Part shown: positions 14,932 to 29,015 of the stretch, piece after piece | Layout: the number at the start of each line of letters is the position of its first letter | Position numbering within the stretch: position 1 is the stretch's first letter | From: Microcystis aeruginosa NIES-2549 | GTDB lineage: Bacteria; Cyanobacteriota; Cyanobacteriia; Cyanobacteriales; Microcystaceae | NCBI RefSeq assembly: GCF_000981785.2 | Contig: NZ_CP011304.1 | Span: 3,960,001 to 3,992,000 of the forward strand | Reading direction: 5' to 3' | Length of the DNA stretch: 32,000 nt | The notes under the pieces: generated by a model | Seen by the model: the letters and a program-made list of their open reading frames with translations, nothing else | The model's database searches: none | Told to the model about the DNA's origin: nothing | Made by a program: the position numbers and the translations under genes

Positions 14932-15439
14932 TGAATAACCCAAAGGGAAACAACAGGAGACAGAGCATCATTGTCTTATCTGTCTCGATTTGACACAGGG
15001 GGAACTTTGACGCTTATTGACACTCCCGTCGCTAAAAGCGAGGGATTCTTGGTTCAACGAGTCCACTTAAATTAGATGCCTTGCGTTATCCAACCCAGAG
15101 GTGGTTCTCTCCCCAAGCATTACTTTTCGTATGCCCCACGATAGTTGTATTTCTACAAAATTTGCTTGAATTGAAGTGTTAGCTTCAAATACTGCTTTGT
15201 CTAGTTCCTGCAAAGATTTTACCTACCTACAGGTAGAAACTAGAACAATTAGGCAGAACCCCAGCTCTTGATTGTCAAGGTGCAGATAGCGTAGTGATTA
15301 GACTACATGGGTTTTTAGAGCGGTTGATTACCCTATCCGCTATACTTGTATGGTAGCTATTTTGCCTGGATAGGTCAAGACCCTTAAAAGAAGAAGTTAT
15401 TCGAGATTTTGTCAGGAGACTGGACACCTATTTTTAATC

Positions 15440-15682
15440 GTGCTTCGTGTCACTGAGCTTGTCGAAGTGCTGTTCTAGGCTGCCCTTTGTTTCATCCCGT
15501 CGCTAAAAGCGAGGGCTTCGGCCGTGAGCTTAGCCGAACGGTCTTCACCCCGACATTTGAGATAAATAGTAACAAATATCACAGTCTATTGTTTGATGGA
15601 TATCCCCTCTCTACTCCACAGGGCAGAAAAGGCCCTACTCCCCATCTTTTCGGAAATTGACGCACAGGTCAAGGAAAATCTC
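15440..15682 (+). repeat. left copy of the long direct repeat bracketing the 11.9-kb segment (last 105 bp perfect)
   Basis: 15578-15682 is identical to 27507-27611 (offset 11,929 nt). 15440-15577 is a degenerate match to 27338-27506. Confidence 0.95.
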
Positions 15683-15733
15683 GCTAAAATCTTATTGGGA
15701 AAGTATGGCGAAGCGATTGATTTCCCTAGGTGA
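15596..15733 (+). pseudogene. 5' stub (29 identical codons) of the YnbB-like PLP-enzyme gene found intact at 27525
   Basis: ATG 15596 reads MDIPSLLHRAEKALLPIFSEIDAQVKENL, identical in nucleotides to 27525-27611. It then diverges (AKILLGKYGEAIDFPR) and stops at 15731-15733. Confidence 0.85.
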
Positions 15734-15901
15734 GGGTTTTTATAGGCAATGCTATCGGACGGGAAAGCCCCAGTCAATACAGCCTAATCTCTTCTAGAAA
15801 CAGTAAATAAGGTAATTTATAGACAAAAAAAGATAAATAAGTCCAAAATATCTGTTTTATCCGATCAGAACTCTATATTTAGCCAGATTAAATAGAACTC
15901 A

Positions 15902-17188
15902 ATGACTCTTAACTTACCTAAACAAATAGTTCAGGCTAATCATCCTCATCCCGTGGCGATCGGCGAAATTGTCTCGATAGCGATCGAAGCCCTCTGGAGT
16001 AATAAACTGCGGACTTTGTTAACCATGTTAGGGGTGATTATTGGCATTGCCTCCGTGATTGCTCTCACCTCCGTAGGCCAAGGAGTACAAAAAGCCACCG
16101 AACAAAAAATTCAATCTCTAGGTACTAATGTTTTACAAATTTTACCCGGAGAAGCCAGAACCGGGGGGATTAGTCTCGGCCGCGGTTCCAGTAGTACCTT
16201 AATCTGGGAAGATGCCAAAGTTATTCAAAATCAAGTTCCTGGTGTGCAGGTGGTCTCCGCCTATCTGCAGCGTCCAGCACCAGTGGTGGCGGGCCAGGTC
16301 AATCATGCCACTAATGTGGTGGGAATCGATCTCAACTACATGAAAGCCAGAAATACAGAACTCAGCCAAGGTCGATTTTTTACCGAGGAAGAAATGGCAC
16401 AGGCGACACCAGTGGCGATTTTAGGCTCGACTCTGTTAACAGAACTCTTTGGCGATGATACTAATCCTATCGGCAAAAAGCTTTGGATTGAAAGAAAAAA
16501 TAGTTACGAAATTATTGGGGTATTTGAGCCAAAAGGTGCAGAAGGTTCGATTGATCGCGACGATCAGGTCTTTATTCCTCTGAGCAATATGTCTTCTCGT
16601 CTGGTGGGCAATAATTCTTTAAGTGGTAAGGCCGTTAACGGCATTTATGTCAAAGTTGACCAGCAAGATCAGATGAAAAATGCCGAGTATCAAATTACTA
16701 ATCTTTTGCGTCAGCGTCACAATCTCGCCGCTGCTCAAGCCGATGATTTTAGCATTAGAAACCAAACAGATGTGGTCAAAACCTTGACCACGGTAGTGGG
16801 TTTGTTTACAGTGATGCTGGTGGCTATCGCTGGCATTTCCCTAGTAGTCGGTGGTATTGGCATCGCTAATATCATGTTAGTTTCCGTGGTGGAACGCACC
16901 AGGGAAATCGGGATTCGCAAAGCTGTGGGGGCCACCCGTTCGGCCATCCTCCAGCAGTTTTTAGCGGAATCGGTGATGATTTCCCTGACTGGCGGCGGCA
17001 TCGGTGTATTATCGGGAATTTTAGTCGCCCTCTGTAGCGCCCAGATTTTCCGATTTCCCTTTGTCTTGTCAGGTTGGTCGATAATCAGTGGATTTGGCTT
17101 ATCTTTTATCGTTGGTTTGTTAGCAGGAGTAATTCCCGCCCGTTCTGCCGCTCATTTAGACCCGATTACCGCTTTACGACGGGATTGA
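15902..17188 (+). CDS. ABC transporter permease, MacB/DevC (FtsX-like) family
   Basis: 428-aa ORF with an N-terminal TM, a large periplasmic domain and a C-terminal FtsX-type 3-TM bundle (REIGIRKAVGATRSAILQQFLAES). Confidence 0.9.
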   Translation: MTLNLPKQIVQANHPHPVAIGEIVSIAIEALWSNKLRTLLTMLGVIIGIASVIALTSVGQGVQKATEQKIQSLGTNVLQILPGEARTGGISLGRGSSSTLIWEDAKVIQNQVPGVQVVSAYLQRPAPVVAGQVNHATNVVGIDLNYMKARNTELSQGRFFTEEEMAQATPVAILGSTLLTELFGDDTNPIGKKLWIERKNSYEIIGVFEPKGAEGSIDRDDQVFIPLSNMSSRLVGNNSLSGKAVNGIYVKVDQQDQMKNAEYQITNLLRQRHNLAAAQADDFSIRNQTDVVKTLTTVVGLFTVMLVAIAGISLVVGGIGIANIMLVSVVERTREIGIRKAVGATRSAILQQFLAESVMISLTGGGIGVLSGILVALCSAQIFRFPFVLSGWSIISGFGLSFIVGLLAGVIPARSAAHLDPITALRRD

Positions 17189-17200
17189 GGCCAATACATC

Positions 17201-17863
17201 CTAAAAAACGATTAAGCCATCTTGAAGACGGATCACCCGCCTAGTTTGGGCAGCTACATCAGGATCGTGGGTGACAATCACAATCGTGATCCCCTGTTGA
17301 TTGAGTTCGGTTAGTAAATCCATCAGTTCTTGGGAAGTTTGTGTATCTAAGGCCCCCGTCGGCTCATCGGCCAACACCAGAGCCGGTTGATTAACTAGGG
17401 CCCGGGCGATGGCGACTCGCTGTTGTTGTCCCCCGGAAAGTTGGCTAGGCCGATTGTGGAGATAATTAGTCAACCCAACTCTAGCTAAAGCTTGCATCGC
17501 TCTTTGACGGCGCCTTGGCTTGGGAACATTGGCATAGACCATCGGCAACATGACATTTTCTAGGGCAGTGGAGCGGGACAATAAATTAAATTGTTGGAAG
17601 ACAAAGCCAATCCTCTGATTGCGAATATATGCCAGTTGGTTATCGTCCAAGTTCTTTAAGTTTCTGCCTTCTAAAATATATTGTCCCCCCGTCGGGCGAT
17701 CGAGGCAGCCGATAATATTCATCAGGGTTGATTTCCCGGAACCCGAAGCTCCCATAATGGACACGTATTCCCCTGACTGAATTTCCAGATCTATGCCCCG
17801 AAGAACAGGAATTTTCACTTCCCCTAGAGAGTAAATTTTTGTAATTGTCTGCAAGAAAATCAT
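17201..17863 (-). CDS. ABC transporter ATP-binding protein, MacB/DevA/LolD-like
   Basis: Walker A GASGSGKST, signature LSGGQQQRVAIARAL and Walker B LVLADEPTGALD. ATG 17863 (MIFLQTITKIYSLGEV) is preferred over the upstream Met at 17923. It is convergent with the permease, with 12 nt between the stops. Confidence 0.9.
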   Translation of the reverse strand: MIFLQTITKIYSLGEVKIPVLRGIDLEIQSGEYVSIMGASGSGKSTLMNIIGCLDRPTGGQYILEGRNLKNLDDNQLAYIRNQRIGFVFQQFNLLSRSTALENVMLPMVYANVPKPRRRQRAMQALARVGLTNYLHNRPSQLSGGQQQRVAIARALVNQPALVLADEPTGALDTQTSQELMDLLTELNQQGITIVIVTHDPDVAAQTRRVIRLQDGLIVF

Positions 17864-18144
17864 CGTTTTTACCAGGGGTGATTTAATACCCACATTCCGC
17901 AGGTTGACAAACAAAAAAATCATTAAACCTGAAAGCCTTTCTGTGCAAGGGCTTCATCTAATTTAGTTCACTTGAATTAATCTGTTTCTTGATATTGATA
18001 ATGAATCCTCCTTATTGAGAATTTGTTGAGCAAGGCTTGTACGATATTGCTTTGCGAAAATTATCCCTCTTTTGTCAGTTTAGGAAATTTCCAGGAAATT
18101 AGGCCGTTTCAGCCCAAGATAAATCAAGGTTTGACAAAAGAGGG

Positions 18145-18265
18145 GGGAGCATCTCACCTTTGTAACCCCTAAATCAGGTTTTATGTCAAGCTATTTTGAA
18201 AGCCTTGCTAGAAACCAGTTTTAGGGACAAGTGTAATTACTCACTTGCATAAATAAGATACTCCC
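18145..18265. mobile_element. ~121-bp MITE, copy R1, with 12-bp terminal inverted repeats and an 8-bp target-site duplication
   Basis: TIRs are GGGAGCATCTCA and TAAGATACTCCC (2 mismatches). It is flanked by AAAGAGGG at 18137-18144 and at 18266-18273. It aligns with R2 over its full length. Confidence 0.8.
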
Positions 18266-18438
18266 AAAGAGGGATATTTATGAAGTGGAATCTGAACTGC
18301 GGAATGTTGGATATAATCCAATTATAGTCATTTCAGATAAGTCTGATACACTCTAGACCGACAAAACCCTTATGAACTCTGGGATTGATATTCTCAATCT
18401 TAATTGAAATGACTATATGTACTAAAAACAGGAAATTC

Positions 18439-19092
18439 ATGACAGATATTCACTCGATCATCGGTATATTCCCCTCCAATGAAGAAGCAAACACAGTTGT
18501 ATTGGAGTTACAAAAAAAAGGCTTCGATATCAAAAAACTTTCATTGCTAAAAACCATTGGCACCCCAAACATAGAGGGTGCAGACTTCCACCCACCTCAC
18601 CCGGCAGGAATTCAACCCCCTCACCCAGAGGGGATGCAGCCTCCTTACCACCCAATGGGCATTCAACCCCCTCATCTGGAAGGAGTTCAACCTCCTGTCT
18701 CAGAAAGAGTTGAACCCCTTCATCCGGAAGGGGTTCAACCCCCCTGTACTCATTTCTTGCCCGGAAGATTACCATCTTCAGCAGTTGGCTTGGCCTTAGT
18801 AGGAGCAGAAGCAGCTGGAATACTATTTATTCCAGGCACAGGACCTGTTTTGATTGCCGGACCGATTGCGAGAACACTGGTAAGTTATGTGGAAAAAATG
18901 ATTACTGATGGCCTTGATCCGGCGGCAATCTCAGCAACTGGGGGACTAACAGAGGGATTGGGCATTCCCAAGCATAAAGCACTGCAATACGAGACTGAAA
19001 TCAGAGCAGGCAAATATGTTTTGCTGATATCGGGGAGTGAGGAAGATGTCAGTCAAGCTAAAAATAGCAGTGGAAGCATCTCACCTTTGTAA
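18439..19092 (+). CDS. stress-protein-like (YflT/DUF1269-like) glycine-zipper membrane protein with a Pro-rich octapeptide-repeat insert
   Basis: ATG 18439 is preceded by AGGA. The N-terminal domain (IIGIFPSNEEANTVVLELQKKGFDIKKLSLL) and C-terminal domain (IRAGKYVLLISGSEEDVSQAK) flank a Gly-rich hydrophobic segment. The last 7 codons and the stop come from MITE R2. The family call rests on recalled domain architecture, not a search. Confidence 0.65.
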   Translation: MTDIHSIIGIFPSNEEANTVVLELQKKGFDIKKLSLLKTIGTPNIEGADFHPPHPAGIQPPHPEGMQPPYHPMGIQPPHLEGVQPPVSERVEPLHPEGVQPPCTHFLPGRLPSSAVGLALVGAEAAGILFIPGTGPVLIAGPIARTLVSYVEKMITDGLDPAAISATGGLTEGLGIPKHKALQYETEIRAGKYVLLISGSEEDVSQAKNSSGSISPL

Positions 19093-19193
19093 CCCCTAAA
19101 TCAGGTTTTTATGTCAATCTATTTTGAAAGCCTTGCTAGAAAACAGTTTTAGGGATAAATATAATTACTCACCTGCATGAATGAGATGCTCCC
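19072..19193. mobile_element. ~122-bp MITE, copy R2
   Basis: TIRs are GGAAGCATCTCA and TGAGATGCTCCC. Flanks are AATAGCAG(T) at 19063-19071 and AATAGCAG at 19194-19201. The interior is near-identical to R1 (CCTTTGTAACCCCTAAATCAGGTTTT.ATGTCAA.CTATTTTGAAAGCCTTGCTAGAAA.CAGTTTTAGGGA). Confidence 0.8.
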
Positions 19194-19299
19194 AATAGCA
19201 GAATAGCAGTCTTACTTCGCCTAAAGGGAGCATACCATTTTCGTAAAATTATTACCAATAGTAAGGCAATAGAAAGGGTTTCAGTTCCCCTGAGAATGG

Positions 19300-19395
19300 C
19301 TAACGTGCCAAATTGGGATGCTCCCCGCCTAAAAGATAAATTTTTGTAATCGTCTGCCAGAAAATCATCGTTTTTACCACGGGTGTTTTGGGATA
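19300..19395 (-). pseudogene. duplicated 5' UTR plus first ~22 codons of the DevA-like ATPase gene
   Basis: TAAATTTTTGTAATCGTCTGCCAGAAAATCATCGTTTTTACCACGGGTG matches 17832-17880 with 3 mismatches in 49 nt. It reads MIFWQTITKIYLLGGEHPNLAR* against the intact MIFLQTITKIYSLGEVKIPVLRG. Confidence 0.75.
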
Positions 19396-19713
19396 ATTTT
19401 GTCCTAGAAATTAGGTTAAGCACTGGAATGTCAAAAATGGCACTATGTTAACAAATATAAAGTAAATTTTTTCAGTGCTGTTTGACTATCAACTGCTATT
19501 TTTATCGGTAAGTTCCAACTATGTCCACATTTAAAGATGAATGTATCCAACTTTGTCCACTTTCTGGGAGTTATCTCAACTAGACACTTGATTAAAACTC
19601 TTTTTTTGCTCAAGAGAGGAAATTATTAAGAAATAAAAAATATCTGGAATCACTGGCAAATAGTGAGAATAAAATAAAAAAACTAAATAGTAAATATACG
19701 GAGAAATCAATCA

Positions 19714-20043
19714 ATGTTAACACCAAGACATCCTCACCCCCCCGCTGCCCCGCAAAGCCCTCCTCCTGGTGTGCCTCAAAGTCCTCCTCCCGGAGCGCAT
19801 CAAGGGTTTCCACCTGGTGGACACCAGAACAATCCTCCGGGGACACCGCAGCCCTTTGCACCGACTGGGGCAGGACCGGCCAATCTACCGCGTCTAACAG
19901 AACAAGATCAAGAACTCTTAAAACAATTACTCGGTAATGATGAACAGGCTCAAGCTTTAGGGGGAATGTTACAAAACTCACCGCCAGAAATTGCCGCTTT
20001 GGGTTATTTAATCTTACGAGTCTTTGAACGTAGTCAGTCCTAA
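19714..20043 (+). CDS. small hypothetical protein: Pro-rich N-terminal half, helical C-terminal half
   Basis: 109-aa ORF with GGAGA about 10 nt upstream of the ATG. The C-terminal half (NLPRLTEQDQELLKQLLGNDEQAQALGGMLQNSPPEIAALGYLILRVF) looks like a folded helical domain. A longer antisense ORF exists, but it is explained by the stop-free complement of Pro codons. Confidence 0.5.
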   Translation: MLTPRHPHPPAAPQSPPPGVPQSPPPGAHQGFPPGGHQNNPPGTPQPFAPTGAGPANLPRLTEQDQELLKQLLGNDEQAQALGGMLQNSPPEIAALGYLILRVFERSQS

Positions 20044-20051
20044 TTGGTCTG

Positions 20052-20126
20052 GTTCTTCGGTTGCTTGTCTGCTTACCAAAGAGCAGAAATGTCATAGTTG
20101 CCGAAGAACTTTTATACCGTTTTTTT
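20052..20126 (+). terminator. possible terminator after the small Pro-rich ORF
   Basis: GTTCTTCGG (20052-20060) pairs with CCGAAGAAC (20101-20109), with an inner CTGCT/AGCAG stem. It is followed by TTTTATACCGTTTTTTT. The loop is long, so this is weak. Confidence 0.35.
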
Positions 20127-20367
20127 GAGATACAACAATTTTGGCAATTCCTAATTTTTCCCTGATCACATAGTTATTTCCCTCTATAAGCCCTGGGAAT
20201 TTACCTTTAGCACCTCTCAAAAAAACATTTTTAGATTCCATCCTACTCGGTCAATCCCTATCTACACAACCCCAGAGACTTAAGAGAGCGTTATCTTGAT
20301 TTTCCCCGCCAGCTTAGGTCAGGATTCTGCCAGAGAAAATATAGTCAAACGAGGATAAAAATTTACC

Positions 20368-21981
20368 ATGAACTCAGAACAAAAAATCAATACTCCCCAA
20401 AACGTCCCAGCACCAACACCATTTCCTAATCAGTCAGGAGTGATGCCCTCATTGCCGCCCACAGATGCCGGCCGGGGGGCGCCTCATAATCAAGGTGGAG
20501 TGAGTCCCTTCATGCCGCCCCCCTTGCCAGGAGATATCGAACCACCGCCCCATCCCCCCGACGGTACACCGTTGCCGAATGTCTGGATTTATGAAGGAGA
20601 AGCCTATGATCTCACGGAATTTATTGCCAAGCATCCGGGGGGACAATTTTTTATTGGACGTACCAAGAACAGAGATATAACCACGATTGTCAATATCTTT
20701 CATCCCAATCCTGAAAGAGTCAAAAAAGTCCTGCAAAAATATTCCCTTGGACAACAGGGAAGACCAGAGCATATTCATCCTAAATACAACGCTCCTGCCT
20801 TCTTATTTAAAGAGCATTTTAATGGTTGGCGGGATACTCCTCGCTATGATTTCCGCAACCCAGAACAATTGCTTAATAAGATTAAAGCCAGAGTTTACTC
20901 TCCAGAATTTAAACAGAAAGTGGAGCGCATGGATTTTCTGTTTAATGTTATCAGTATCTGTCTTTTTCTTATCTATTTTGTGGTGCAAGGGCTGTACTTA
21001 GAGGCCAGACAGTATATGCCGATTTACCTATTTGTGCCTCTCATCGCTATGCTAAGAATCGCCCTAGCAGGGGTAGGTCACTACCTAATTCATCGGCCAC
21101 AAGTGGGATTAAACAAGGTATTTGCCAATATTTTTGATATTAACTACGTTCCCCTCGCTTTAGTAGTAACAGACGGTCATACTTTACTGCATCATCCCTT
21201 TACCCAAACCGATGTTGATATCAAAAAGAATGTTTTCACCTTCATGTTAGAATTGCCTCGTTTTTATCGAGTTCCAGTACATACATTCCATAAAATAGGC
21301 CATGTGGTTACGGGAATGTTTGTTCGCATTATGGAATTATGTATCCTCGCTTTTAAAGCAGGTGTTAAGAATATGTATGGCAGTTGGCAGCTGGGATTAC
21401 CCCATTTTTTAGGTAGTTTTGGTATTCACTTATTACTATTAATCGAACTGGTTATCTTTTGTCTATACGGCCAATTTTGGGCTTGGTTAGCGCAGTTTTT
21501 CCTTACCCTCTGGATTAGCACTTTTATGATTGTGGCTAGTCATGATTTTGAAGCCGAAGAACCGCCAATAGATCCTATGGCACCACCTCAATGGGAAACC
21601 CAAGATTGGGCGGTTATGCAGATTAAAAATTCCTACGATTTGACTATGGTAGGTAATAAGTATATTGACTGTTTTCTCTCGGCGGGCTTGGCTCCCCACC
21701 GGGTGCATCACGTTCTTCCCCAACAAAAAAGTGGTTTTGCCAATATCATCAGTGAAGATATTGTCCGGGAAGAATCGGAAAAATTCGGAGTTGAATGGGC
21801 GGCACCTCAAAACTTCTTTTTTGACCGCCTACCAGGGCTAATTAAACACTATCTAGCTGTGCCATCCCGATTAGCCAAAGAGAAGGAGTTGGGATTATTG
21901 AAAGAACATTTTCACCCGCAAGCCTTAAGAACAACCCTAGACTATATTGTCAAAGGTTGGGCTGGTATTGGTTCAATTTGA
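20368..21981 (+). CDS. cytochrome b5-fused membrane fatty-acid desaturase/hydroxylase family protein with a Pro-rich N-terminal extension
   Basis: 537-aa ORF. The b5 heme-binding motif is EFIAKHPGGQFFIG, with a second His in NIFHPN. His boxes are GHYLIH (HxxxH), HTLLHH (HxxHH) and HRVHH (HxxHH), separated by TM segments. Confidence 0.85.
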   Translation: MNSEQKINTPQNVPAPTPFPNQSGVMPSLPPTDAGRGAPHNQGGVSPFMPPPLPGDIEPPPHPPDGTPLPNVWIYEGEAYDLTEFIAKHPGGQFFIGRTKNRDITTIVNIFHPNPERVKKVLQKYSLGQQGRPEHIHPKYNAPAFLFKEHFNGWRDTPRYDFRNPEQLLNKIKARVYSPEFKQKVERMDFLFNVISICLFLIYFVVQGLYLEARQYMPIYLFVPLIAMLRIALAGVGHYLIHRPQVGLNKVFANIFDINYVPLALVVTDGHTLLHHPFTQTDVDIKKNVFTFMLELPRFYRVPVHTFHKIGHVVTGMFVRIMELCILAFKAGVKNMYGSWQLGLPHFLGSFGIHLLLLIELVIFCLYGQFWAWLAQFFLTLWISTFMIVASHDFEAEEPPIDPMAPPQWETQDWAVMQIKNSYDLTMVGNKYIDCFLSAGLAPHRVHHVLPQQKSGFANIISEDIVREESEKFGVEWAAPQNFFFDRLPGLIKHYLAVPSRLAKEKELGLLKEHFHPQALRTTLDYIVKGWAGIGSI

Positions 21982-22134
21982 GCCAACAAAAACCAGAAAT
22001 TCTGTCGGAAAGTTTCGGGAAAATTATTGGGCATCTTACGGATATAATAAAGACCCAGACTTTTCCCTAGCTTTCCAGGCAATTGGTTGACAGAAACCCT
22101 CCCTATAATACCTAAACTGGTTCTGATATTTGCC

Positions 22135-23322
22135 ATGCAATCTTCTCAGTTTTTACCTGTCATTGAAAGTCTCGCCACTGGCACTCCGGGCAATCTTGTC
22201 CAACAAACGGATGCCGCTAAATTTTTAGCTAACCTCAAAGGTCTAGAGAAGAATCAACATCGTATCGAAAAAATCTACGAACATACCCGGATTGACACTA
22301 GGCATCTAGCTATTAACTTATTAACTGAAGAAACTGTTAACTTTAGTCGAGAAGAGGGAACTATTGAACAACGAATGCAAATGTACGAAAAATATGGGCT
22401 TCCCCTAGCAGAAGATGTGGCGAGAAGAGTTATTTTAGCCGCATCGGAGCAACAGAAAAAGCATAATCCTTTGAGTACAGAAAAGATCGAGGATTCTATT
22501 GGTCTAATCGTATTCGTCACCAGTACAGGCTTTGTTGCCCCGGGTATAGATGCTCAATTAATTAAAAGTTTAGGACTTCGACGCAACATTGCTAGAGTGC
22601 CAGTTAATTTTATGGGTTGTGCAGCCGCAATGAATGGTTTACGAGTAGCCTGTGATCATGTAAGAGCCAACCCTGAGCATAAAGCTTTAGTAATTTGTTT
22701 AGAATTAAGTTCTATTAATGCCGTTTTTCAAGATGATTTAAATGACATTATCATTCATAGTATTTTTGGTGATGGTTGTGCGGCAGTAGTAATCGGAGCC
22801 TACGAACCAGAACAAATACAAGGTCGAGGAAAATTTATCATTCGGGATAATTTTAGTTATCTGGCTGAAAATACCGAAGACGGGATTACCTTAGGCATTA
22901 GAGACAATGGTATTACCTGTCTGCTGTCCCGTCAATTACCTGATTATATTGAGTCTGGTGTCGGTCGAATTATTACTAATTTTCTGAATAGTCATGAGAT
23001 AACCAAGGAAGATATTGATTTATGGATGGTTCACCCTGGAGGGACAAAAATTATTGAAAAAGTGCAACTTTCCCTAGATTTAAATGATGAACAAGTGGCC
23101 GATAGTTGGGGAGTTCTCCGTCAATACGGCAACCTACTTAGTTGTGCGATTTTATTTGTAATGGAACGCATGATCTTAAGATTAGAACAAGGATGTGAGA
23201 CGCAAGCTCTTAAACAAAATAACAGCGGAGTTACTCGTCAAAACGCCGCATCTTTGACAGGTTTGGCCTTCTCTTTTGCCCCAGGAGTTGGTATTGAAGG
23301 AATTCTCCTAGAAAAGATTTAA
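22135..23322 (+). CDS. type III polyketide synthase (chalcone/stilbene synthase superfamily)
   Basis: Cys-His-Asn triad in type III PKS contexts: NFMGCAAAMNGL, WMVHPGGTKII (HPGG is typical of type III PKS, not FabH) and YGNLLSCAILFVM, plus IFGDGCAAVVIG. ATG 22135 (MQSSQFLPVIESLATGTP) is preferred over TTG 22087. Confidence 0.88.
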   Translation: MQSSQFLPVIESLATGTPGNLVQQTDAAKFLANLKGLEKNQHRIEKIYEHTRIDTRHLAINLLTEETVNFSREEGTIEQRMQMYEKYGLPLAEDVARRVILAASEQQKKHNPLSTEKIEDSIGLIVFVTSTGFVAPGIDAQLIKSLGLRRNIARVPVNFMGCAAAMNGLRVACDHVRANPEHKALVICLELSSINAVFQDDLNDIIIHSIFGDGCAAVVIGAYEPEQIQGRGKFIIRDNFSYLAENTEDGITLGIRDNGITCLLSRQLPDYIESGVGRIITNFLNSHEITKEDIDLWMVHPGGTKIIEKVQLSLDLNDEQVADSWGVLRQYGNLLSCAILFVMERMILRLEQGCETQALKQNNSGVTRQNAASLTGLAFSFAPGVGIEGILLEKI

Positions 23323-23365
23323 CCCCACCCTTGAAAATCTATCACCGGACAGGAGGACAAAATTA

Positions 23366-25291
23366 ATGGAATTTTTGAGATTTTTGCTGGCCATATCCTG
23401 GAAACATATCACTATTGCTATCGTAGCAGGTTTAGTTAGCGGTGTTGGCAACGCTCTTTTAATTTCTTTGATTAATCGAGAAGTCCATGAGGGTCATGCG
23501 GTCAATGCTCTACAATACTTTAGTATCTTGGCCATATTTATTATAGTGACCAGCATGATCTCGCAATTTATGCTGATTTTTCTCTCGCAGAATGCTATCT
23601 ATGAACTGCGAGTGAAATTGAGTAAAAATATTTTGTCCTCTCCTTTAGAACATCTAGAGAGACTGAAAGAAAATCGTCTTTTGGTTAGTTTTACCGATGA
23701 TGTTCATACCCTAACTCATGCAGTGGCATCCGTGCCGAATATCTGTGTGGATTTTGCTACAGTTGTCGGCTGTTTCGTTTACTTTGCTTGGCTATCTAAT
23801 GCCCTTTTCGTCTTAACGATAGCTTCTACTGTTAGTGCCATCTGGTTTGTGCAAACGATCCTGAATAAAGCCGAACGTTTATTTTTTAAGTCGAGGGAAG
23901 AAGAAGACACCCTATTTAAGGATTTTAAAGCCTTGATGAGCGGCATCAAAGAACTCAAGCTCAATCAGTCCAAAAGGCAGGCTTTTATGGAGAAGGAATT
24001 GCAGAGTAGTGCTGTACGGCTTCGGCAACTAAATACCAAAGCGATGAAAAGATTTGCGATCGCTAACGGGTTTGGACAACTATCTCAGTTTCTCAGTTTG
24101 GGATTTATTCTGTTCATTCTACCTTTGTTTTTAGACATTCCTTTAACGATGTTGGCCGCCTATGTTTTAATTGGTACTTTCATCGCCTTGCCAATGCAGA
24201 ATATGCTCAATCGCATTCCTGAATTAGTCCGGGGAAATATTGCCCTGCGAAAAATTGAAAGGATGAAATTATCTCTCTCCAGTCTCTCGGAAGCAGATAC
24301 CCTAGTTTTATCCATCAGTCCCTCCTGTCAACTACAATTTCAAGCTGTCACCTATCTCTATCACCCAGAATTACCACCTTTCCCCCCCGAAGGTTCTCCC
24401 GAAGGCCATCCACCTTTCCCCCCCGAAGGTTCTCCCGAAGGCCATCCACCTTTCCCCCCCGAAGGTTCTCCCGAAGGCCATCCACCTTTCCCCCCCGAAG
24501 GTTCTCCCGAAGGCCATCCACCCTTTCCTCATAATGGTCTTTCTCAAGGTTTTGCCAATAGTTTACCAGCACTAGCACCAGAATCCCCCTCCTCCGAGAA
24601 GAAACCAATTCCCTTTCCATCCCATCCCCCCTATTCTCAAAAAGGCAACCCACCACCACCGCCAAGGACAGATGAAAAAGGATTTCTGCTCGGACCAATT
24701 AGCTTTTCTTGGCAACCAGGGGAACTGATCTTTATTATTGGCGGCAATGGCAGCGGCAAGTCAACTTTAGCTAAACTAATTACAGGACTATACCCACCCC
24801 TATCGGGAGCAATTTACCTCAATGGTAAACGTATTACCCAAGATAATGTGGAGTGGTATCGTCAACATTTCTCGGCAATTTTCTATGATTTTTACTTATT
24901 CGATAGTTTTCTCGGTTTTGATCGCCCCAATCTCGATCAAGAGGTAGAAAATTATCTGATGCAACTGCAATTAGCCCATAAAGTCACGGTCAAAAATGGA
25001 GTTTTATCCACCACAGAACTATCTCAAGGACAAAGGAAACGACTGGCTTTATTAACAGCCTATTTAGAGGATCGTCCTATCTATGTGTTTGATGAATGGG
25101 CCGCCGACCAAGAACCCCGTTTTAGGGAACTATTCTATAAACAGATACTGCTACAACTGAAAGAAAGAGGAAAAATAGTTATTGTTATTAGCCATGATGA
25201 GCGCTATTTTCATCTAGCCGATCATATTATTAAGCTCGATTATGGTGCTGTGGAATCGGAACAGACTGTTCAACAATCAGGTTCTCTCTAA
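23366..25291 (+). CDS. ABC exporter of the SyrD/PvdE-like 'cyclic peptide transporter' type, with a ~95-aa Pro-rich insert between TMD and NBD
   Basis: AGGAGG lies 8 nt upstream of the ATG. The 6-TM N-terminal half starts MEFLRFLLAISWKHITIAIVAGLVSG. The NBD has Walker A GGNGSGKST, signature LSQGQRKRLALL and Walker B IYVFDEWAADQEP. Confidence 0.88.
   Translation: MEFLRFLLAISWKHITIAIVAGLVSGVGNALLISLINREVHEGHAVNALQYFSILAIFIIVTSMISQFMLIFLSQNAIYELRVKLSKNILSSPLEHLERLKENRLLVSFTDDVHTLTHAVASVPNICVDFATVVGCFVYFAWLSNALFVLTIASTVSAIWFVQTILNKAERLFFKSREEEDTLFKDFKALMSGIKELKLNQSKRQAFMEKELQSSAVRLRQLNTKAMKRFAIANGFGQLSQFLSLGFILFILPLFLDIPLTMLAAYVLIGTFIALPMQNMLNRIPELVRGNIALRKIERMKLSLSSLSEADTLVLSISPSCQLQFQAVTYLYHPELPPFPPEGSPEGHPPFPPEGSPEGHPPFPPEGSPEGHPPFPPEGSPEGHPPFPHNGLSQGFANSLPALAPESPSSEKKPIPFPSHPPYSQKGNPPPPPRTDEKGFLLGPISFSWQPGELIFIIGGNGSGKSTLAKLITGLYPPLSGAIYLNGKRITQDNVEWYRQHFSAIFYDFYLFDSFLGFDRPNLDQEVENYLMQLQLAHKVTVKNGVLSTTELSQGQRKRLALLTAYLEDRPIYVFDEWAADQEPRFRELFYKQILLQLKERGKIVIVISHDERYFHLADHIIKLDYGAVESEQTVQQSGSL
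24374..24517 (+). repeat. four perfect 36-bp tandem repeats (plus a degenerate fifth at 24518-24540) inside the ABC exporter CDS
   Basis: The unit CCACCTTTCCCCCCCGAAGGTTCTCCCGAAGGCCAT occurs at 24374, 24410, 24446 and 24482. It encodes (PPFPPEGSPEGH)x4 in frame. Confidence 0.97.
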
Positions 25292-25317
25292 ATTAACCCA
25301 CCAGTTTCTTACTCACT

Positions 25318-26877
25318 ATGTCAGATAGTTCCTCCTTCCAAAAACTTAACAAACAGCCCGCAATTAGCTGGGCATTGGGATTACTAGCTTTATTTTTAGC
25401 CATTGGTGGTATTGTTCTCGCCTATCGTCAGTTTGGGCATACCCCCCACCGGGATAGTTCCCGTCCGCTGCCTGTAGCCGTGGAACAGACGGATTTAACG
25501 ATCATCGTTTCCGCTAATGGCACTGTGGAACCGGAAAAAGTGGTTAATGTTAGCCCTAAAACAGCAGGAATTTTGAAGGAACTGCTAGTAGATGAGGGTT
25601 ATACTGTCAAAAAAGGACAGATAATTGCTAAAATGGACGATTCTGATTGGCAGGGTCAATTATTAGAATCCCAGGGCAAACTAGCGGCAGCCCAAGCTAA
25701 TCTCCGCAAACTAATCGCCGGTAATCGTCCCCAAGAAATCGCTCAGGCCCAAGCGAAACTGGAACAACTAGAAGCCAACCTACAAAAGCTGATGGCCGGT
25801 AATCGTTCTCAGGAAATTGCCCAAGAAAAAGCTCGTTTAGAAGGTTTAAAAGCCATTTTCCAAAAATCTGATGATGAATATCGTCGCAATCAGCTACTTT
25901 TCAACGAAGGAGCCATATCTCAACAGACTTTAAACGAAAAACTGGCAACTAGGGATAGCGCCCAGGCTGCCGTGATTGAATCCCAAGAAAAGCTATCTCT
26001 CCTTAAAGAAGGAACTCGCTCGGAAGAAATTGCTCAAGCAAAGGCGGAAGTGAGAAATCAACAACAGGTCTTAGACCTTCTCCAAGCAGGAACAAGACAG
26101 GAGGAAATCGATCAAGCACGGGCGGAGGTGACTACTGCTCAGGGTTCTCTACAAAATGTCAAAACTCAGATTGAGGATACCATCATCAAAGCACCCTTTG
26201 ACGGGGTGGTTACTTTTGTCTACGCTGAACCGGGGGCCTTTGTCGCTCCTACTACGACCGGCAGTTCCGTATCTTCGGCCACTTCTTCCTCGATTTTATC
26301 CCTGGTTTCACAAAATGAAGTGGTCAGCAATGTAGCAGAAAAAAACATTGATAAGATCCGGGTTGGGCAAAAGGTGACGATTACAGCCGATGCTTATCCC
26401 GATAAAATCTTCCATGGACGAGTCTCTCTGATTGCCACCCAGGCAACGGTAGAACAAAATGTCACCAGTTTTGAAGTGAAAGTGACCCTAGAAGAAAAGG
26501 CGGCCAGGGAATTAAAGGCGGGAATGAATGTTTCTACCGATTTCCAAGTCGGCCAACTGAAAAACGCTTTAACCGTGCCAACTATTGCCGTTACCCGTCA
26601 GAACGAGCAAACTGGTGTTTTTGTTGGCGCACCTAACCAACCACCCCGATTTGTCCCCATTACCACTGGCGTTACTATCGGCAATCGTACCGAAGTTAAA
26701 AGCGGACTCGATGGCTCCGAACATATCTTAATTAATCCACCCTCGGACACCCGACCAAGGCAAGGTTTTTCTTGGCAAAGTCTCTTTGGTGGTGGGGGGA
26801 ACGAACCTGCTGCCGGTGGCCCTCCCCCCGGGGCCCCACCACAGGGAGCCTCACCCCCCCCAAGTGGGCCGCTCTAA
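25318..26877 (+). CDS. HlyD/DevB-family periplasmic adaptor (membrane fusion protein) with a Gly/Pro-rich C-terminal tail
   Basis: Signal-anchor TM (ISWALGLLALFLAIGGIVLAY), a lipoyl-like domain, a long coiled coil with four G(N/T)RxxEIxQAxA repeats, and a beta-barrel. It starts 26 nt after the ABC exporter stop. Confidence 0.9.
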   Translation: MSDSSSFQKLNKQPAISWALGLLALFLAIGGIVLAYRQFGHTPHRDSSRPLPVAVEQTDLTIIVSANGTVEPEKVVNVSPKTAGILKELLVDEGYTVKKGQIIAKMDDSDWQGQLLESQGKLAAAQANLRKLIAGNRPQEIAQAQAKLEQLEANLQKLMAGNRSQEIAQEKARLEGLKAIFQKSDDEYRRNQLLFNEGAISQQTLNEKLATRDSAQAAVIESQEKLSLLKEGTRSEEIAQAKAEVRNQQQVLDLLQAGTRQEEIDQARAEVTTAQGSLQNVKTQIEDTIIKAPFDGVVTFVYAEPGAFVAPTTTGSSVSSATSSSILSLVSQNEVVSNVAEKNIDKIRVGQKVTITADAYPDKIFHGRVSLIATQATVEQNVTSFEVKVTLEEKAARELKAGMNVSTDFQVGQLKNALTVPTIAVTRQNEQTGVFVGAPNQPPRFVPITTGVTIGNRTEVKSGLDGSEHILINPPSDTRPRQGFSWQSLFGGGGNEPAAGGPPPGAPPQGASPPPSGPL

Positions 26878-27337
26878 TCATTCCTATTGTCAACCTTGGC
26901 AGATGTTTTCAGCGGAAGGATTGACGTTGTATGATCAGTAGGCTTGTTGACAATCCCCGAAGCGCTCAGGCGAGGGATTCTTGAAGCTCATCACCGCGCT
27001 TTCTGGTTTCCCCTACTCACGTCTTACACGATTATGTCCTATCCGAACCTACTAGAATATCACTTGTTATCTAGTTGTCCACTTGTGGATAGCTCTCCAA
27101 GCGTTTTGGTCTTTCAACCAAGATTCGGGTATGCCCTACCCTATCTGCCTTACGGCAAAATGTTTTTAGTTTATTTCAGTCTTGGAAAAGACTTACTCCC
27201 CTGTTTTAAGAGTTTTCGGGTGGCTCTTGTCTTCTTTTTTCTCCTCAAAAGTGCCGTACTATTGCAACGGGATTTCCACGATGTGAGCGGCATTTCAACC
27301 TGTTGACTCTTGGATTTTAACACAACTGTTTAGAGTT

Positions 27338-27611
27338 GTGCTTCGTGTCACTGAGCCTTGACATTGAGCCTGTCGAAATGTGTCGAAATGTGTCGAAATG
27401 TGGACACTGAGCCTGTCGAAGTGCTGTTCTATATTGGTCGGCTTTTCATCTCCGAGGTAAAACCGAGGGTTTCTCCAAGCCGACATTTAAGGTAAATGCA
27501 ATACAGATCACAGTCTATTGTTTGATGGATATCCCCTCTCTACTCCACAGGGCAGAAAAGGCCCTACTCCCCATCTTTTCGGAAATTGACGCACAGGTCA
27601 AGGAAAATCTC
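27338..27611 (+). repeat. right copy of the long direct repeat (last 105 bp perfect); contains the promoter region and 5' end of the intact PLP-enzyme gene
   Basis: See the left copy at 15440-15682. This copy also carries (TGTCGAAATG)x3 at 27371-27400, which is absent from the left copy. Confidence 0.95.
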
Positions 27612-28748
27612 CGTCAAGTCCTCGCTGCTTTCCGTGCAAACCGCGTCGGGGTGCATCATTTTGCTAGTGTTAGCGGTTATGGTCATGATGACTTGGGACG
27701 GGATACTTTAGATCAAGTGTTCGCCCAAGCCCTGGGGGCCGAAAAGGCAGCGGTGCGAGTACAATTTGTTTCAGGAACCCATGCGATCGCCTGTGCCTTG
27801 TATGGGGTTCTTCGACCGGGGGATGAGATGTTAGCGGTAGCGGGTGCGCCCTACGATACCCTAGAGGAAGTAATCGGGATTAGGGGCAGTGGTCAAGGCT
27901 CTTTAAAAGATTTTGGCGTTAGTTATCGGCAATTAGAGCTAGATTCTACTGGTGCGATCGATTGGTTGTCCTTGGCAACGGCAGTGAAACCCCAAACCCG
28001 TTTAGTACATATTCAAAGATCCTGCGGTTATTCCTGGCGATCGAGTTTGTCTATTGACGAAATCGAGAGAATTGTCCGTATAGTTAAACAACAAAACCCG
28101 AATACGGTCTGTTTTGTCGATAATTGCTATGGGGAATTTATCAACACCCAAGAACCCACCGATGTGGGGGCAGATCTGATGGCCGGTTCTCTAATTAAAA
28201 ACCCCGGAGGTACAATTGTCACGGCTGGGGGATACATAGCAGGTAAAGCGGAATTAGTGGAAATGGCCTGCTATCGTCTGACAGCACCTGGAATCGGTAG
28301 CGAGGGAGGGGCAACTTTTGACCAAAATCGTCTTCTTTATCAGGGATTGTTTCTAGCGCCGCAAATGGTGGGAGAAGCGATGAAAGGCAGTCATTTAATT
28401 GCCTATGTGGGCGATAAGTTGGGTTATCCGGTCAATCCTGCTCCTTTTGTGCCTCGACGCGATATTATTCAAGCGATTAAACTCGGTTCCCCCGATAAGC
28501 TGATCGCCTTCTGTAAAGCCATTCAAGCCTATTCTCCCATCGGTTCCTACTTGGATCCCATTCCTGCCCAAATGCCGGGCTATGAGAGCCAAGTAGTGAT
28601 GGCTGGTGGCACTTTTATCGATGGCAGCACCTCGGAATTCTCCGCCGATGGACCCCTACGGGAACCCTATATCGTTTTTTGTCAGGGGGGAACCCATTGG
28701 ACTCATATTTCCCTGGCCCTAGAACAAGCGATCGCCGCTTTATCTTAA
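27525..28748 (+). CDS. YnbB-like / 'aluminium resistance' family PLP-dependent enzyme (Met gamma-lyase-like fold)
   Basis: 407-aa ORF with the family-typical N-terminus (VHHFASVSGYGHDDLGRDTLDQVFA), VSGTHAI and the PLP-Lys context GSLIKNPGG. ATG 27525 is preferred over TTG 27522. Confidence 0.85.
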   Translation: MDIPSLLHRAEKALLPIFSEIDAQVKENLRQVLAAFRANRVGVHHFASVSGYGHDDLGRDTLDQVFAQALGAEKAAVRVQFVSGTHAIACALYGVLRPGDEMLAVAGAPYDTLEEVIGIRGSGQGSLKDFGVSYRQLELDSTGAIDWLSLATAVKPQTRLVHIQRSCGYSWRSSLSIDEIERIVRIVKQQNPNTVCFVDNCYGEFINTQEPTDVGADLMAGSLIKNPGGTIVTAGGYIAGKAELVEMACYRLTAPGIGSEGGATFDQNRLLYQGLFLAPQMVGEAMKGSHLIAYVGDKLGYPVNPAPFVPRRDIIQAIKLGSPDKLIAFCKAIQAYSPIGSYLDPIPAQMPGYESQVVMAGGTFIDGSTSEFSADGPLREPYIVFCQGGTHWTHISLALEQAIAALS

Positions 28749-28870
28749 ACGGGTCCTCTCACTTTCCTTCTCTCCCTTAGTTAAAGTCCTAACTTCCTGT
28801 CTTTGTGGTTAACAAAAAGGGAACAGTCAAGGAGCAAAAGTGCCATTAATAGAGGCTTTCAACATTAGTA

Positions 28871-29015
28871 TTTAGGCTCTCTTGGGTTTGGTGGGTAAAA
28901 TGTATTCTTGAGATATAATTCTGCTGGCGAGCGAGTGGCACGAACCACAAAGACACAAAGGACACAAAGATCGGTCGCTCCTATATAAGTTAAACTTATC
29001 ACACAAAGAATAAGA
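28871..29015. repeat. ~140-bp dispersed repeat (MITE-like), copy 2
   Basis: It aligns with 12308-12446 in the same orientation. Confidence 0.85.

What the first reader, a model, noticed from the sequence alone, without database searches (positions are those of the whole stretch)
15440..27611. 11.9-kb segment bracketed by a perfect 105-bp direct repeat that duplicates the 5' end of the flanking gene; no integrase or transposase
15578-15682 is base-for-base identical to 27507-27611 (offset 11,929 nt). Similarity continues upstream in degenerate form, with shared blocks GTGCTTCGTGTCACTGAGC, CTGTCGAAGTGCTGTTCTA and CGACATTT.AG.TAAAT.

The left copy carries the ATG and 29 codons of the YnbB-like gene. 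It then diverges and terminates, leaving a dead stub. The right copy heads the intact gene.

All the unusual genes (exporters, Pro-rich proteins, b5-desaturase, type III PKS) therefore sit between attL/attR-like duplicates. I found no integrase, transposase or tRNA anywhere in the segment.

105 bp of identity is enough for homologous recombination to delete the segment precisely and restore a single-copy site.
Basis: partly seen in the sequence, partly recalled or inferred. Interest (0 to 1): 0.72.

Follow-up and report, generated by a model that had tools for sequence, protein, structure and literature searches.

The report
Gene-cluster insertion flanked by 105-bp target duplication
In this Microcystis chromosome an 11.8-kb lipid/polyketide-and-exporter gene cluster sits between two ancient neighbour genes, flanked by a duplicated 105 bp of the target; some strains lack it, it carries no recombinase, and it fits a little-understood known class called insertion with long target duplication.

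Summary
Window 15578-15682 equals 27507-27611 exactly (105 bp).

The left copy is a dead 45-codon stub of the Met_gamma_lyase/YnbB-like gene. The right copy heads the intact gene.

**Origin.** The window is a Microcystis aeruginosa-type chromosome. Other Microcystis genomes and metagenome contigs carry an empty site: desC, about 130 bp, one core, intact gene. The desC/ynbB divergent pair is conserved in 70 of 80 cyanobacterial loci. The segment is therefore an insertion.

**Distribution.** It always lies at the same site with the same junctions. It is present in roughly a third of sampled populations.

**Mobility genes.** No recombinase, transposase or tRNA was found, and no circular (attP-type) junction among 24 metagenome contigs.

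- The degenerate upstream similarity is not part of the duplication. It comes from two independently polymorphic ~545-bp IS200/IS605-derived miniature elements, E1 and E2.
- The perfect identity is specific to this strain. In other strains the two copies differ by about 3 nt.

**New points.**
[quoted passage not shown] That suggests a circular or tandem intermediate.
- A second, nested 1.5-kb insertion duplicates the start of the ABC ATPase gene.

**Verdict.** A new member of the known class "insertion with long target duplication".

The parts
14098..14931 (-). desC-type acyl-lipid desaturase, left flanking gene. It is the ancestral divergent neighbour of the ynbB-like gene.
   Evidence: PF00487. 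A divergent desC lies next to ynbB in 70 of 80 cyanobacterial loci, with gaps mostly 80-280 bp.
15017..15561 (-). E1: a 545-bp IS200/IS605-derived miniature element in minus orientation. It is a polymorphic insertion just upstream of the left repeat copy and is not part of the island.
   Evidence: - Absent from L010 and from 6 empty-site and several island-bearing contigs; present at 6 empty sites.
- Its first 316 nt match cyanobacterial plasmids. In Stanieria the match lies at the 3' end of a tnpB gene.
- TnpB C-terminal remnants lie on the minus strand.
- The same hairpin occurs near both ends, at 15024-15048 and 15495-15519.
- No target-site duplication.
15578..15682 (+). Left copy of the 105-bp duplicated target: 18 nt of 5' leader plus 29 codons of ynbB.
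   Evidence: Identical to 27507-27611. It aligns to the single copy at empty sites.
15596..15733 (+). Dead 45-codon stub ORF: 29 ynbB codons plus 16 unrelated codons.
   Evidence: Translation. It carries a 24-nt internal deletion in L100.
15683..27506 (+). The insert proper, 11,824 bp. It contains a circularly permuted cytochrome-b5/type III PKS/exporter cluster.
   Evidence: Absent from the empty sites. Gene content. GC is 43.4% against 44.6% in the flanks. HIP1 (GCGATCGC) occurs once in 11.8 kb against 9 times in 19.3 kb.
15902..17188 (+). MacB/DevC-type ABC permease.
   Evidence: PF12704 and PF02687.
17201..17863 (-). DevA/LolD-type ABC ATPase, inverted relative to the canonical operon.
   Evidence: PF00005; 220 aa, TIGR02982-like.
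17885..19389 (-). Nested second insertion, a 1,505-bp unit including one repeat copy. It carries the Pro-rich 235-aa gene (18385-19092). It is bracketed by a ~57-62-nt duplication (17823-17884 and 19328-19389, 87% identical) that spans the ATPase start codon.
   Evidence: D6. A single copy and no insert in L092, L100 and L117-L122. Three-way alignment.
19714..20043 (+). Small Pro-rich protein (109 aa). A small ORF (43-111 aa) lies at the same position upstream of the cytochrome-b5 gene in four of five other taxa.
   Evidence: ORF. Small ORFs of 94, 110, 111 and 43 aa lie upstream of the cytochrome-b5 gene in L115, L123, L124 and L128. None was called in L129. The comparison is by position only; sequence similarity was not tested.
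20368..21981 (+). Cytochrome-b5 fused to a membrane desaturase/hydroxylase-like domain with three His boxes: HYLIH, HTLLHH, HRVHH.
   Evidence: PF00173. Sequence. Some homologues carry PF00487.
22087..23322 (+). Type III polyketide synthase.
   Evidence: PF00195 and PF02797.
23366..25291 (+). Fused TMD-NBD ABC exporter with a Pro-rich 36-nt tandem-repeat linker (24374-24553).
   Evidence: PF00664 and PF00005. TIGR01194 scores above its cut-off. Repeat D1.
25318..26877 (+). HlyD/DevB-type membrane-fusion protein.
   Evidence: PF16576 and PF13437. TIGR01730 scores above its cut-off. The 519-aa length is confirmed by L091 and L093.
26945..27491 (-). E2: a second miniature element of the same family as E1, similar only at its ends. 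It is polymorphic within island-bearing genomes.
   Evidence: Present in L091, L093, L097 and L001. Absent from L100, L101, L104 and L113.
27507..27611 (+). Right copy of the 105-bp duplicated target, heading the intact gene.
27525..28748 (+). Intact YnbB-like PLP enzyme (Met_gamma_lyase family). It is the right flanking gene, not part of the cluster.
   Evidence: PF06838, E 1e-198. It is present at empty sites and next to desC across cyanobacteria.

Best explanation
A foreign gene cluster was inserted once into the compact, ancient desC/ynbB divergent gene pair of a Microcystis ancestor. The cluster comprises a small Pro-rich protein, a cytochrome-b5 desaturase-like enzyme, a type III PKS, an ABC exporter, a membrane-fusion protein, a MacB-type permease and an ATPase.

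**The insertion event**
- It duplicated 105 bp of the target: 18 nt of leader plus the first 29 codons of ynbB.
- The native promoter region was left attached to a dead stub.
- An intact ynbB remained behind the insert.
- This is the pattern called "insertion with long target duplication". No element-encoded recombinase is involved.

**The likely intermediate (inferred)**
- The insert is a circular permutation of the canonical operon, opened exactly between the membrane-fusion gene and the permease gene.
- The incoming DNA was therefore most likely a circle, or a tandem repeat, of the cluster.

**After insertion (inferred)**
- The insert has been a presence/absence polymorphism at a fixed locus.
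- It is exchanged among strains by homologous recombination through the flanks.
- It could be lost precisely through RecA-dependent recombination between the 105-bp copies.

**Shown versus inferred**
- Shown: the duplication, the empty sites, the single site, the permutation, and the lack of mobility genes.
- Inferred: the circular intermediate, the route of spread, and loss by repeat recombination.
For: - **Empty sites.** They exist with one core flanked by the left copy's upstream sequence and the right copy's downstream sequence: L010 and 13 metagenome contigs.
- **Ancestral state.** desC and ynbB are divergent neighbours in 70 of 80 loci from other cyanobacteria. None of those loci holds cluster genes in between or a second ynbB 5' copy.
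- **One site, one pair of junctions.** Every occupied Microcystis locus seen has the same site and junctions. The cytochrome-b5 protein P0121 is indexed in 185 blocks, and all six contexts shown are desC, stub, permease.
- **No mobility genes.** No recombinase, transposase or tRNA. No terminal inverted repeats.
- **Canonical gene order.** In Nostoc sp. C052 (L129) and contig L115 the order is cytochrome-b5, PKS3, ABC, MFP, permease, ATPase, all co-directional. In Microcystis, permease and ATPase are at the left end and MFP at the right end. Joining the two island ends restores MFP followed by permease.
- **Native duplication.** Right-flank ynbB sequences of island-bearing contigs lie within normal Microcystis diversity. 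The core variants 23C, 28T and 58T are shared between stub, intact-copy and empty-site alleles.
- **Foreign signature.** HIP1 is depleted in the insert.
- **A second case.** A nested insertion with the same topology duplicates the ATPase start.
- **Precedent.** The class is described in the literature, including an 88-bp case in Microcystis, with repeats that often span translation starts (PMC2853133).
Against: - The mechanism of this class is unknown, so the name describes rather than explains.
- The permutation also needs an inversion of the ATPase gene. It could therefore result from local rearrangements rather than from a circle.
- Only two outgroup clusters contain permease and ATPase.
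- The roughly 45 nt upstream of the two cores are weakly similar (anchored alignment, p about 0.01). This could mean the incoming DNA already carried a diverged ynbB upstream fragment.
- No circular junction was seen, though only 24 metagenome contigs were sampled.
Confidence: 0.55

Rival explanations
1. **Homologous insertion-duplication.** A circular copy of the cluster already carried a fragment of a ynbB upstream region plus 5' end between the MFP and permease genes. It integrated by a single RecA-dependent crossover in that fragment, like a natural suicide-plasmid integration. It can excise and re-integrate by the same route.
For: - The topology is exactly that of insertion-duplication: a stub truncated at a fixed point with the native upstream, and an intact gene with the insert-borne upstream.
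- There is weak upstream similarity (p about 0.01).
- The island-side upstream sequence is constant in all strains, while the cores carry local alleles.
- The empty-site allele in L112 is a left/right chimera of the L106 stub core and the L113 intact-copy core, and it shares a downstream haplotype with L113.
- The gene order is circularly permuted.
Against: - It needs an unexplained first capture of a ynbB fragment.
- No attP-type junction appeared in 24 contigs.
- The upstream similarity is short and only marginally significant.
- No other taxon shows a ynbB fragment elsewhere.
Confidence: 0.2
2. **Decayed integrase-type island or cis-mobilisable element.** The 105 bp would be an att core. 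A tyrosine or serine recombinase, now lost or acting in trans, inserted the island into the 5' end of ynbB while supplying a replacement 5' end.
For: Direct repeats lie at a gene end and the target gene is restored, as in elements that integrate into the 5' end of dusA (from memory). The insertion site is strictly one site.
Against: - No recombinase appears in any of at least 15 island variants.
- The cargo is nothing but the biosynthetic cluster.
- No attP junction was found.
- No integrase-bearing element lies at ynbB in 80 loci.
- The identity block ends at an arbitrary codon, with no recognisable core-type inverted repeats.
Confidence: 0.08
3. **In-situ rearrangement.** The cluster was resident in the Microcystis ancestor. 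The permutation and the repeat arose by tandem duplication followed by deletions or inversions. Today's empty sites are precise deletions between the repeats.
For: - Duplication followed by deletion is the classical route to circular permutation.
- The ATPase inversion and the nested duplications show that this region rearranges.
- Island-bearing and empty flank haplotypes are interleaved.
Against: - The route needs several steps.
- It does not explain why only 105 bp of the target is duplicated.
- desC/ynbB adjacency without the cluster is the state in every outgroup.
- HIP1 depletion suggests a foreign origin.
Confidence: 0.12
4. **Assembly artefact.** The left copy would be a mis-join.
For: The deposited record has homopolymer errors nearby.
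Against: The same stub junction occurs in at least 11 independent assemblies and metagenomes.
Confidence: 0.01

Closest known systems
Insertion with long target duplication (Nobusato et al. 2000; Furuta, Abe and Kobayashi 2010, PMC2853133)
   Same: - A non-transposon insert of under 20 kb with no mobility genes.
- It is flanked by direct repeats longer than 30 bp that both align to a single copy in an empty-site genome.
- The repeat spans a translation start, so the target gene stays intact.
- The class has already been reported once in Microcystis (88 bp).
   Different: - Published cases carry restriction-modification genes. Here the cargo is a biosynthetic and exporter cluster.
- The cargo's circular permutation gives a hint about the intermediate.
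- A second such event is nested inside the first.
[quoted passage not shown]
   Same: [quoted passage not shown] The product is unknown, and an alkylpyrone similar to the PKS18 product has been suggested. Microcystis members are listed in that paper.
   Different: - In Microcystis the order is permuted and the ATPase is inverted.
- The "sulfhydrylase" that the paper counts in the SPC777 and NIES-1211 clusters is probably the flanking ynbB-like gene. That gene is a conserved neighbour of desC and not part of the insert (my inference).
Integrase-type genomic islands that replace the 5' end of their target gene (for example dusA-specific islands) and cis-mobilisable elements
   Same: Direct repeats made from the target gene's end; the gene is restored by the insert-side copy; there is one specific site.
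   Different: No recombinase here or in any variant, no related autonomous element, and no attP junction.
IS200/IS605-family miniature derivatives (palindrome-associated elements), for E1 and E2 only
   Same: - No target duplication, and seamless presence or absence.
- The same hairpin lies near both ends.
- E1 retains the 3' end of tnpB.
- On the minus strand the flanks read ...TTTAT| and ...TTTAC|, and the element ends ...GTCAA. This resembles the TTAC and TCAA sites of IS608 (from memory).
   Different: There is no transposase. Copy number in the genome is unknown. E2 resembles E1 only at its ends.

Membership tests
Insertion with long target duplication | Both flanking repeats align to one single-copy sequence in an empty-site genome. 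| tested here: met
   L010 and 13 metagenome contigs have one core with the left copy's upstream sequence and the right copy's downstream sequence.
Insertion with long target duplication | The duplication is longer than 30 bp and the insert is shorter than 20 kb. | tested here: met
   105 bp and 11,824 bp.
Insertion with long target duplication | No transposase, integrase or other mobility gene in the insert. | tested here: met
   Pfam and NCBIfam scans of the 8 main ORFs checked and of 10 further ORFs of at least 80 aa, plus ARAGORN. Caveat: E2 is a transposase-less IS remnant that entered later.
Integrase-type genomic island | A tyrosine or serine recombinase gene at one end. | tested here: not met
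   None in the window or in variants L091-L122.
Integrase-type genomic island | An excised circular form (attP junction: island right end, core, island left end). | tested here: inconclusive
   None among the 25 core copies on 24 metagenome contigs. No read-level data were available.
DNA transposon or composite transposon | Terminal inverted repeats or flanking IS copies, with a short target duplication. | tested here: not met
   No terminal inverted repeats. The duplication is 105 bp. E1 and E2 are polymorphic independently of the island.
IS200/IS605-derived miniature element (E1, E2) | No target duplication; subterminal hairpins at both ends on one strand. | tested here: met
   Occupied and empty sites compared. 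Hairpin copies at 15024-15048 and 15495-15519. E2's hairpins are degenerate.
IS200/IS605-derived miniature element (E1, E2) | Sequence homology to an autonomous family member. | tested here: met
   For E1 only: it matches the tnpB 3' end and right-end region of Stanieria plasmid pSTA7437.05 and other cyanobacterial plasmids, and TnpB C-terminal remnants are present. E2 had no match.
IS200/IS605-derived miniature element (E1, E2) | Multiple copies per genome. | not testable with these tools
   Only this locus was available. A viral-contig scan found nothing.
[quoted passage not shown] | A cytochrome-b5 gene immediately upstream of a type III PKS, with transporters. | tested here: met
   Described in PMC8086630.
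[quoted passage not shown] | The PKS falls in clade 3.1 of the published tree. | not tested
   No phylogeny was built.

The most novel reading that the evidence does not exclude
The permuted operon would be the first direct footprint that inserts of the "long target duplication" class enter as circles. On this reading the island is a recombinase-free cassette. Host RecA loops it out through its 105-bp repeats. It travels as a roughly 10-kb circle, for example by transformation. It re-enters any Microcystis at the conserved ynbB start by a single crossover, regenerating the repeats each time. That would be a self-perpetuating way for a biosynthetic cluster to move without any mobility gene.
Probability: 0.25. 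Interest if true: 0.65.

Novelty: new member of a known kind. Interest (0 to 1): 0.4.

Why it matters
- **Gain and loss without mobility genes.** It shows how a widely expressed but uncharacterised Microcystis biosynthetic cluster is gained and lost. This is relevant to strain-level chemical diversity in blooms.
- **A clue to mechanism.** It extends a poorly understood insertion class beyond restriction-modification cargo. The circular permutation of the cargo is a structural clue to how that class works.
- **Cluster boundaries.** The YnbB-like "sulfhydrylase" is a flanking housekeeping neighbour, not a pathway gene.
- **Possible promoter swap (inference).**
  - The native ynbB promoter now faces the stub and the permease.
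  - ynbB itself sits behind the cluster.
  - Its regulation may therefore differ between island-bearing and empty strains.

Tried and rejected
- **Exact-protein look-ups.** Those using the mechanical ORF starts failed. They worked after trimming to the ATG. The cytochrome-b5 protein of the window is not on record exactly.
- **Rfam.** Nothing at gathering thresholds. At relaxed thresholds only a sub-threshold RAGATH-18 hit inside E1 (E 0.05). I treat it as chance.
- **RNA folding.** The conserved 3' parts of E1 and E2 fold no better than shuffles (z = 0.5 and -0.9).
- **Searches that found nothing.**
  - A viral-contig scan for the E motif.
  - Plasmid searches with E2 and with the 219-nt island left end.
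- **Plasmid-borne clusters.** No cyanobacterial plasmid in PLSDB carries the cluster. The only plasmid hits were actinobacterial homologues at 54-57% identity.
- **Spacer comparison.** The MFP-permease spacer of L115 is unalignable with the joined island ends because the taxa are too distant.
- **Promoter and terminator scans.** Results at both junctions were at chance level.
- **Composition.** GC and tetranucleotide composition do not separate the insert. Only HIP1 density does, marginally.
- **Donor-tract model.** I considered homology-facilitated illegitimate recombination from a foreign donor that would leave a foreign tract in ynbB. I set it aside because right flanks of island-bearing strains fall within normal Microcystis diversity.

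Full report
**1. The observation**

Window 15578-15682 and 27507-27611 are identical over exactly 105 nt. The match stops at both ends.

The left copy contains 18 nt of leader, ATG 15596 and 29 codons of the gene that is intact at 27525-28748 (PF06838 Met_gamma_lyase, E 1e-198). After codon 29 the left copy reads 16 unrelated codons and stops.

There is no tRNA or tmRNA and no Rfam family. No recombinase or transposase domain occurs in the main ORFs checked or in ten further ORFs of at least 80 aa inside the segment.

**2. Source and reality of the structure**

The intact gene's product is encoded on CP012375.1 (GCA_001704955.2), a 4.29-Mb chromosome. The window is 99.97% identical to it. From memory this record is Microcystis aeruginosa NIES-2481, which a paper in the library describes.

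The only differences are three 1-nt deletions in C-runs and one SNP. Independent metagenome contigs agree with the window at the ABC and MFP genes, so the window's reading frames there are the correct ones.

The stub junction recurs in at least 11 independent assemblies. It is not an artefact.

**3. Empty sites and direction of change**

Microcystis sp. BLCC-F210 (L010) has desC, about 130 bp, one core, then the intact gene.

I scanned metagenome contigs for the last 24 nt of the core. This returned 24 contigs carrying 25 core copies. I classified each by what lies on either side of the core:

| Class | Count | Contigs |
|---|---|---|
| Empty site | 13 | 6 bare, 6 with E1, 1 with a shortened E-like insert |
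| Stub junction (native upstream, core, island left end) | 5 | L092, L100, L106, L107, L109 |
| Intact-gene junction (island right end, core, gene) | 7 | L091, L093, L097, L100, L101, L104, L113 |
| attP-type (island right end, core, island left end) | 0 | none |

Outside Microcystis, desC is the divergent neighbour of ynbB in 70 of 80 loci from many genera. Gaps are mostly 80-280 bp. None of these loci has cluster genes in between or a second ynbB 5' fragment.

The empty arrangement is therefore ancestral for cyanobacteria, and the segment is an insertion.

**4. One site, one pair of junctions, many internal variants**

The cytochrome-b5 protein variant P0121 is indexed in 185 blocks of the collection. 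The six distinct contexts shown all read desC, 45-aa stub, permease, ATPase (minus strand), then cytochrome-b5 and PKS3.

Internal variants seen:
- A 5.5-kb deletion form lacking 19968-24531 (L100).
- Forms without the nested 1.5-kb segment (L092, L100, L117-L122).
- Forms without E2 (L100, L101, L104, L113).
- A lineage in which the island is interrupted at about 23215 (L117-L122).

**5. The perfect identity is strain-specific**

- In contig VYLM01000001 the two cores (L107 and L101) differ at 3 positions.
- In VYLB01000057 (L106 and L113) they also differ at 3 positions.
- In L100 the stub copy carries a 24-nt deletion.

Variants 23C, 28T and 58T are shared among stub, intact-copy and empty-site alleles. 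No difference is fixed between the two copy classes.

Flank haplotypes of island-bearing and empty genomes are interleaved. For example, the right flanks of L104 and L113 are 0.35-0.44% from empty L105, and the window's left flank is 1.4% from empty L099. All four combinations of E1 presence and island presence occur.

This means either recombination through the flanks, or repeated gain and loss. The two cannot be separated here.

**6. What the upstream similarity really is**

Relative to bare sites, the window has two extra blocks:
- E1, 545 bp (15017-15561), upstream of the left core.
- E2, 547 bp (26945-27491), upstream of the right core.

Both start TTGACA(C/A)TCCC and end CCGACATTT(G/A)AG. 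Both lack target duplications. Both sit immediately before (A/G)TAAAT, about 16 nt from the core. Their interiors are unrelated.

E1 also occurs at six empty sites, and E2 is missing from four island-bearing contigs. They entered independently of the island.

Evidence that they derive from IS200/IS605 elements:
- E1's first 316 nt match cyanobacterial plasmids at 68-90% identity. In Stanieria pSTA7437.05 the match lies at the 3' end of a tnpB gene.
- E1's minus strand retains TnpB C-terminal remnants, GHTKSNAWGENHLW and DSLNQES.
- The same hairpin lies near both of its ends.

I read E1 and E2 as IS200/IS605-derived miniature elements in minus orientation. On that strand the flanks read TTTAT| and TTTAC|, and the element ends GTCAA. 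This resembles the TTAC and TCAA sites of IS608 (from memory).

The CGACATTT.AG part of the third block lies at their ends.

Once the elements are removed, the roughly 45 nt upstream of the two cores are only weakly similar (anchored alignment, p about 0.01).

**7. The cargo**

[quoted passage not shown] 2021, whose product is unknown (PMC8086630).

The cytochrome-b5 fusion has close homologues across cyanobacteria at 60-77% identity.

| Source | Gene order |
|---|---|
| Nostoc sp. C052 (L129) | cytochrome-b5, PKS3, ABC exporter, 65-aa ORF, MFP, MacB-type permease, ATPase; all on one strand |
| Contig L115 | 94-aa ORF, cytochrome-b5, PKS3, ABC exporter, MFP, MacB-type permease, ATPase; all on one strand |
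| Other taxa (L123, L128) | End after the ABC exporter or the MFP |
| Microcystis | Permease and an inverted ATPase at the left end; MFP at the right end |

Joining the two ends of the Microcystis island restores MFP followed by permease in the same direction. A circular permutation opened exactly at the insertion junctions is what integration of a circle, or of a unit cut from a tandem array, would produce. This is an inference. It also requires one inversion of the ATPase gene.

GC content does not mark the insert (43.4% against 44.6%). HIP1 is depleted, with 1 copy against 9.

The YnbB-like gene is not part of the cluster. The "sulfhydrylase" that Larsen et al. count in two Microcystis clusters is probably this flanking gene (inference).

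**8. A nested second case**

Inside the island, 17823-17884 and 19328-19389 are 87% identical direct repeats. They span the start codon of the ATPase gene on the minus strand.

They bracket a 1.5-kb segment carrying a Pro-rich 235-aa gene. L092, L100 and L117-L122 have a single copy and no insert.

The three-way alignment shows the same topology as the main event. The native upstream sequence plus a stub lie on one side, and the intact gene lies behind the insert.

**9. Comparison with known systems**

The pattern meets every stated criterion of "insertion with long target duplication":
- Both repeats align to one target copy.
- The repeat is longer than 30 bp.
- The insert is shorter than 20 kb.
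- There are no mobility genes.
- The repeat often spans a translation start, so the target stays intact.

That paper lists an 88-bp case in Microcystis NIES-843 against PCC 7806. Its mechanism is unknown.

Integrase-type islands and transposons fail their defining features here.

**10. Verdict**

The finding is a real, polymorphic, fixed-site insertion of a known biosynthetic cluster, flanked by a 105-bp target duplication. It belongs to a known but mechanistically unexplained class.

The added value lies in four results:
- The empty sites.
- The correction about E1 and E2.
- The permuted gene order as a clue to a circular intermediate.
- The nested second event.

Active excision has not been shown.

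Noticed in passing
window 15017-15561 and 26945-27491: Two different members of one IS200/IS605-derived miniature-element family inserted independently at the equivalent position, just before (A/G)TAAAT and about 16 nt upstream of each copy of the duplicated core. L105 has a third, shortened variant at the same spot. The site looks like a hot spot for this family.
   Followed up: partly
window 17823-17884 / 19328-19389, and 18136-18267 / 19063-19195: Nested direct repeats lie inside the island. The outer pair (87% identical) duplicates the ATPase start and brackets a 1.5-kb insert that most other islands lack. The inner pair (about 90% identical, 928-nt spacing) brackets the Pro-rich 235-aa gene. 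No empty form of the inner pair was looked for.
   Followed up: partly
L117 9523-18186 (GCA_031546645.1 JAVQIG010097639.1); L118-L122 contig ends: In one Microcystis lineage the island matches the window only up to about 23215, the 3' end of the PKS gene. It then continues into five large ORFs without Pfam hits: 292, 509 (a Pro run plus repeated GCT(D/N)..A.NYN motifs), 1645, 209 and more than 376 aa. These look like phage structural proteins. At least two of the five other contigs (L118, L122) also stop matching the window at that point.
   Followed up: no
window 24490, 26854, 31834: The deposited record CP012375.1 lacks one C in three C7/C8 runs relative to the window. This splits the ABC exporter (402 + 197 aa) and lengthens the MFP to 540 aa. 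Independent metagenome contigs agree with the window (641 and 519 aa).
   Followed up: yes
window 24374-24553: A 36-nt tandem repeat encodes a Pro-rich 12-aa unit (HPPFPPEGSPEG) 4-5 times, between the membrane and ATPase domains of the ABC exporter. The copy number varies: the L104/L113 allele is 613 aa. Pro-rich tracts also mark the small 109-aa protein, the N-terminus of the cytochrome-b5 protein and the C-terminus of the MFP.
   Followed up: no
window 12307-12446 and 28870-29015: A dispersed intergenic repeat of about 140 nt (87-89% identical, same orientation) containing CACAAAGA/CACAAAGG motifs. One copy lies between the aldehyde dehydrogenase and dxr genes. The other lies between the ynbB-like gene and the vWA gene.
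   Followed up: no
L002 4878-6523 (equivalent to window ~10131-10158): One metagenome contig carries a DUF4411 gene plus an HTH/Peptidase_M78 gene between the riboflavin-synthase-like gene and the next gene. The window has nothing there. This is another small presence/absence polymorphism.
   Followed up: no
window 14932-15016 plus 15562-15595, and 70 other cyanobacterial loci: The desC/ynbB-like divergent gene pair, with an intergenic region of about 80-280 bp, is conserved across many cyanobacterial orders. This suggests a shared regulatory region or a functional link between a lipid desaturase and this PLP enzyme of unknown role.
   Followed up: partly
NZ_LN868939.1 and NZ_LR134450.1 (hits H5, H6): The desaturase-like part of the cytochrome-b5 fusion (residues 71-537) has 54-57% identical homologues in Nocardia and Tsukamurella replicons. 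This fits the mycobacterial PKS18 link mentioned in the literature.
   Followed up: no
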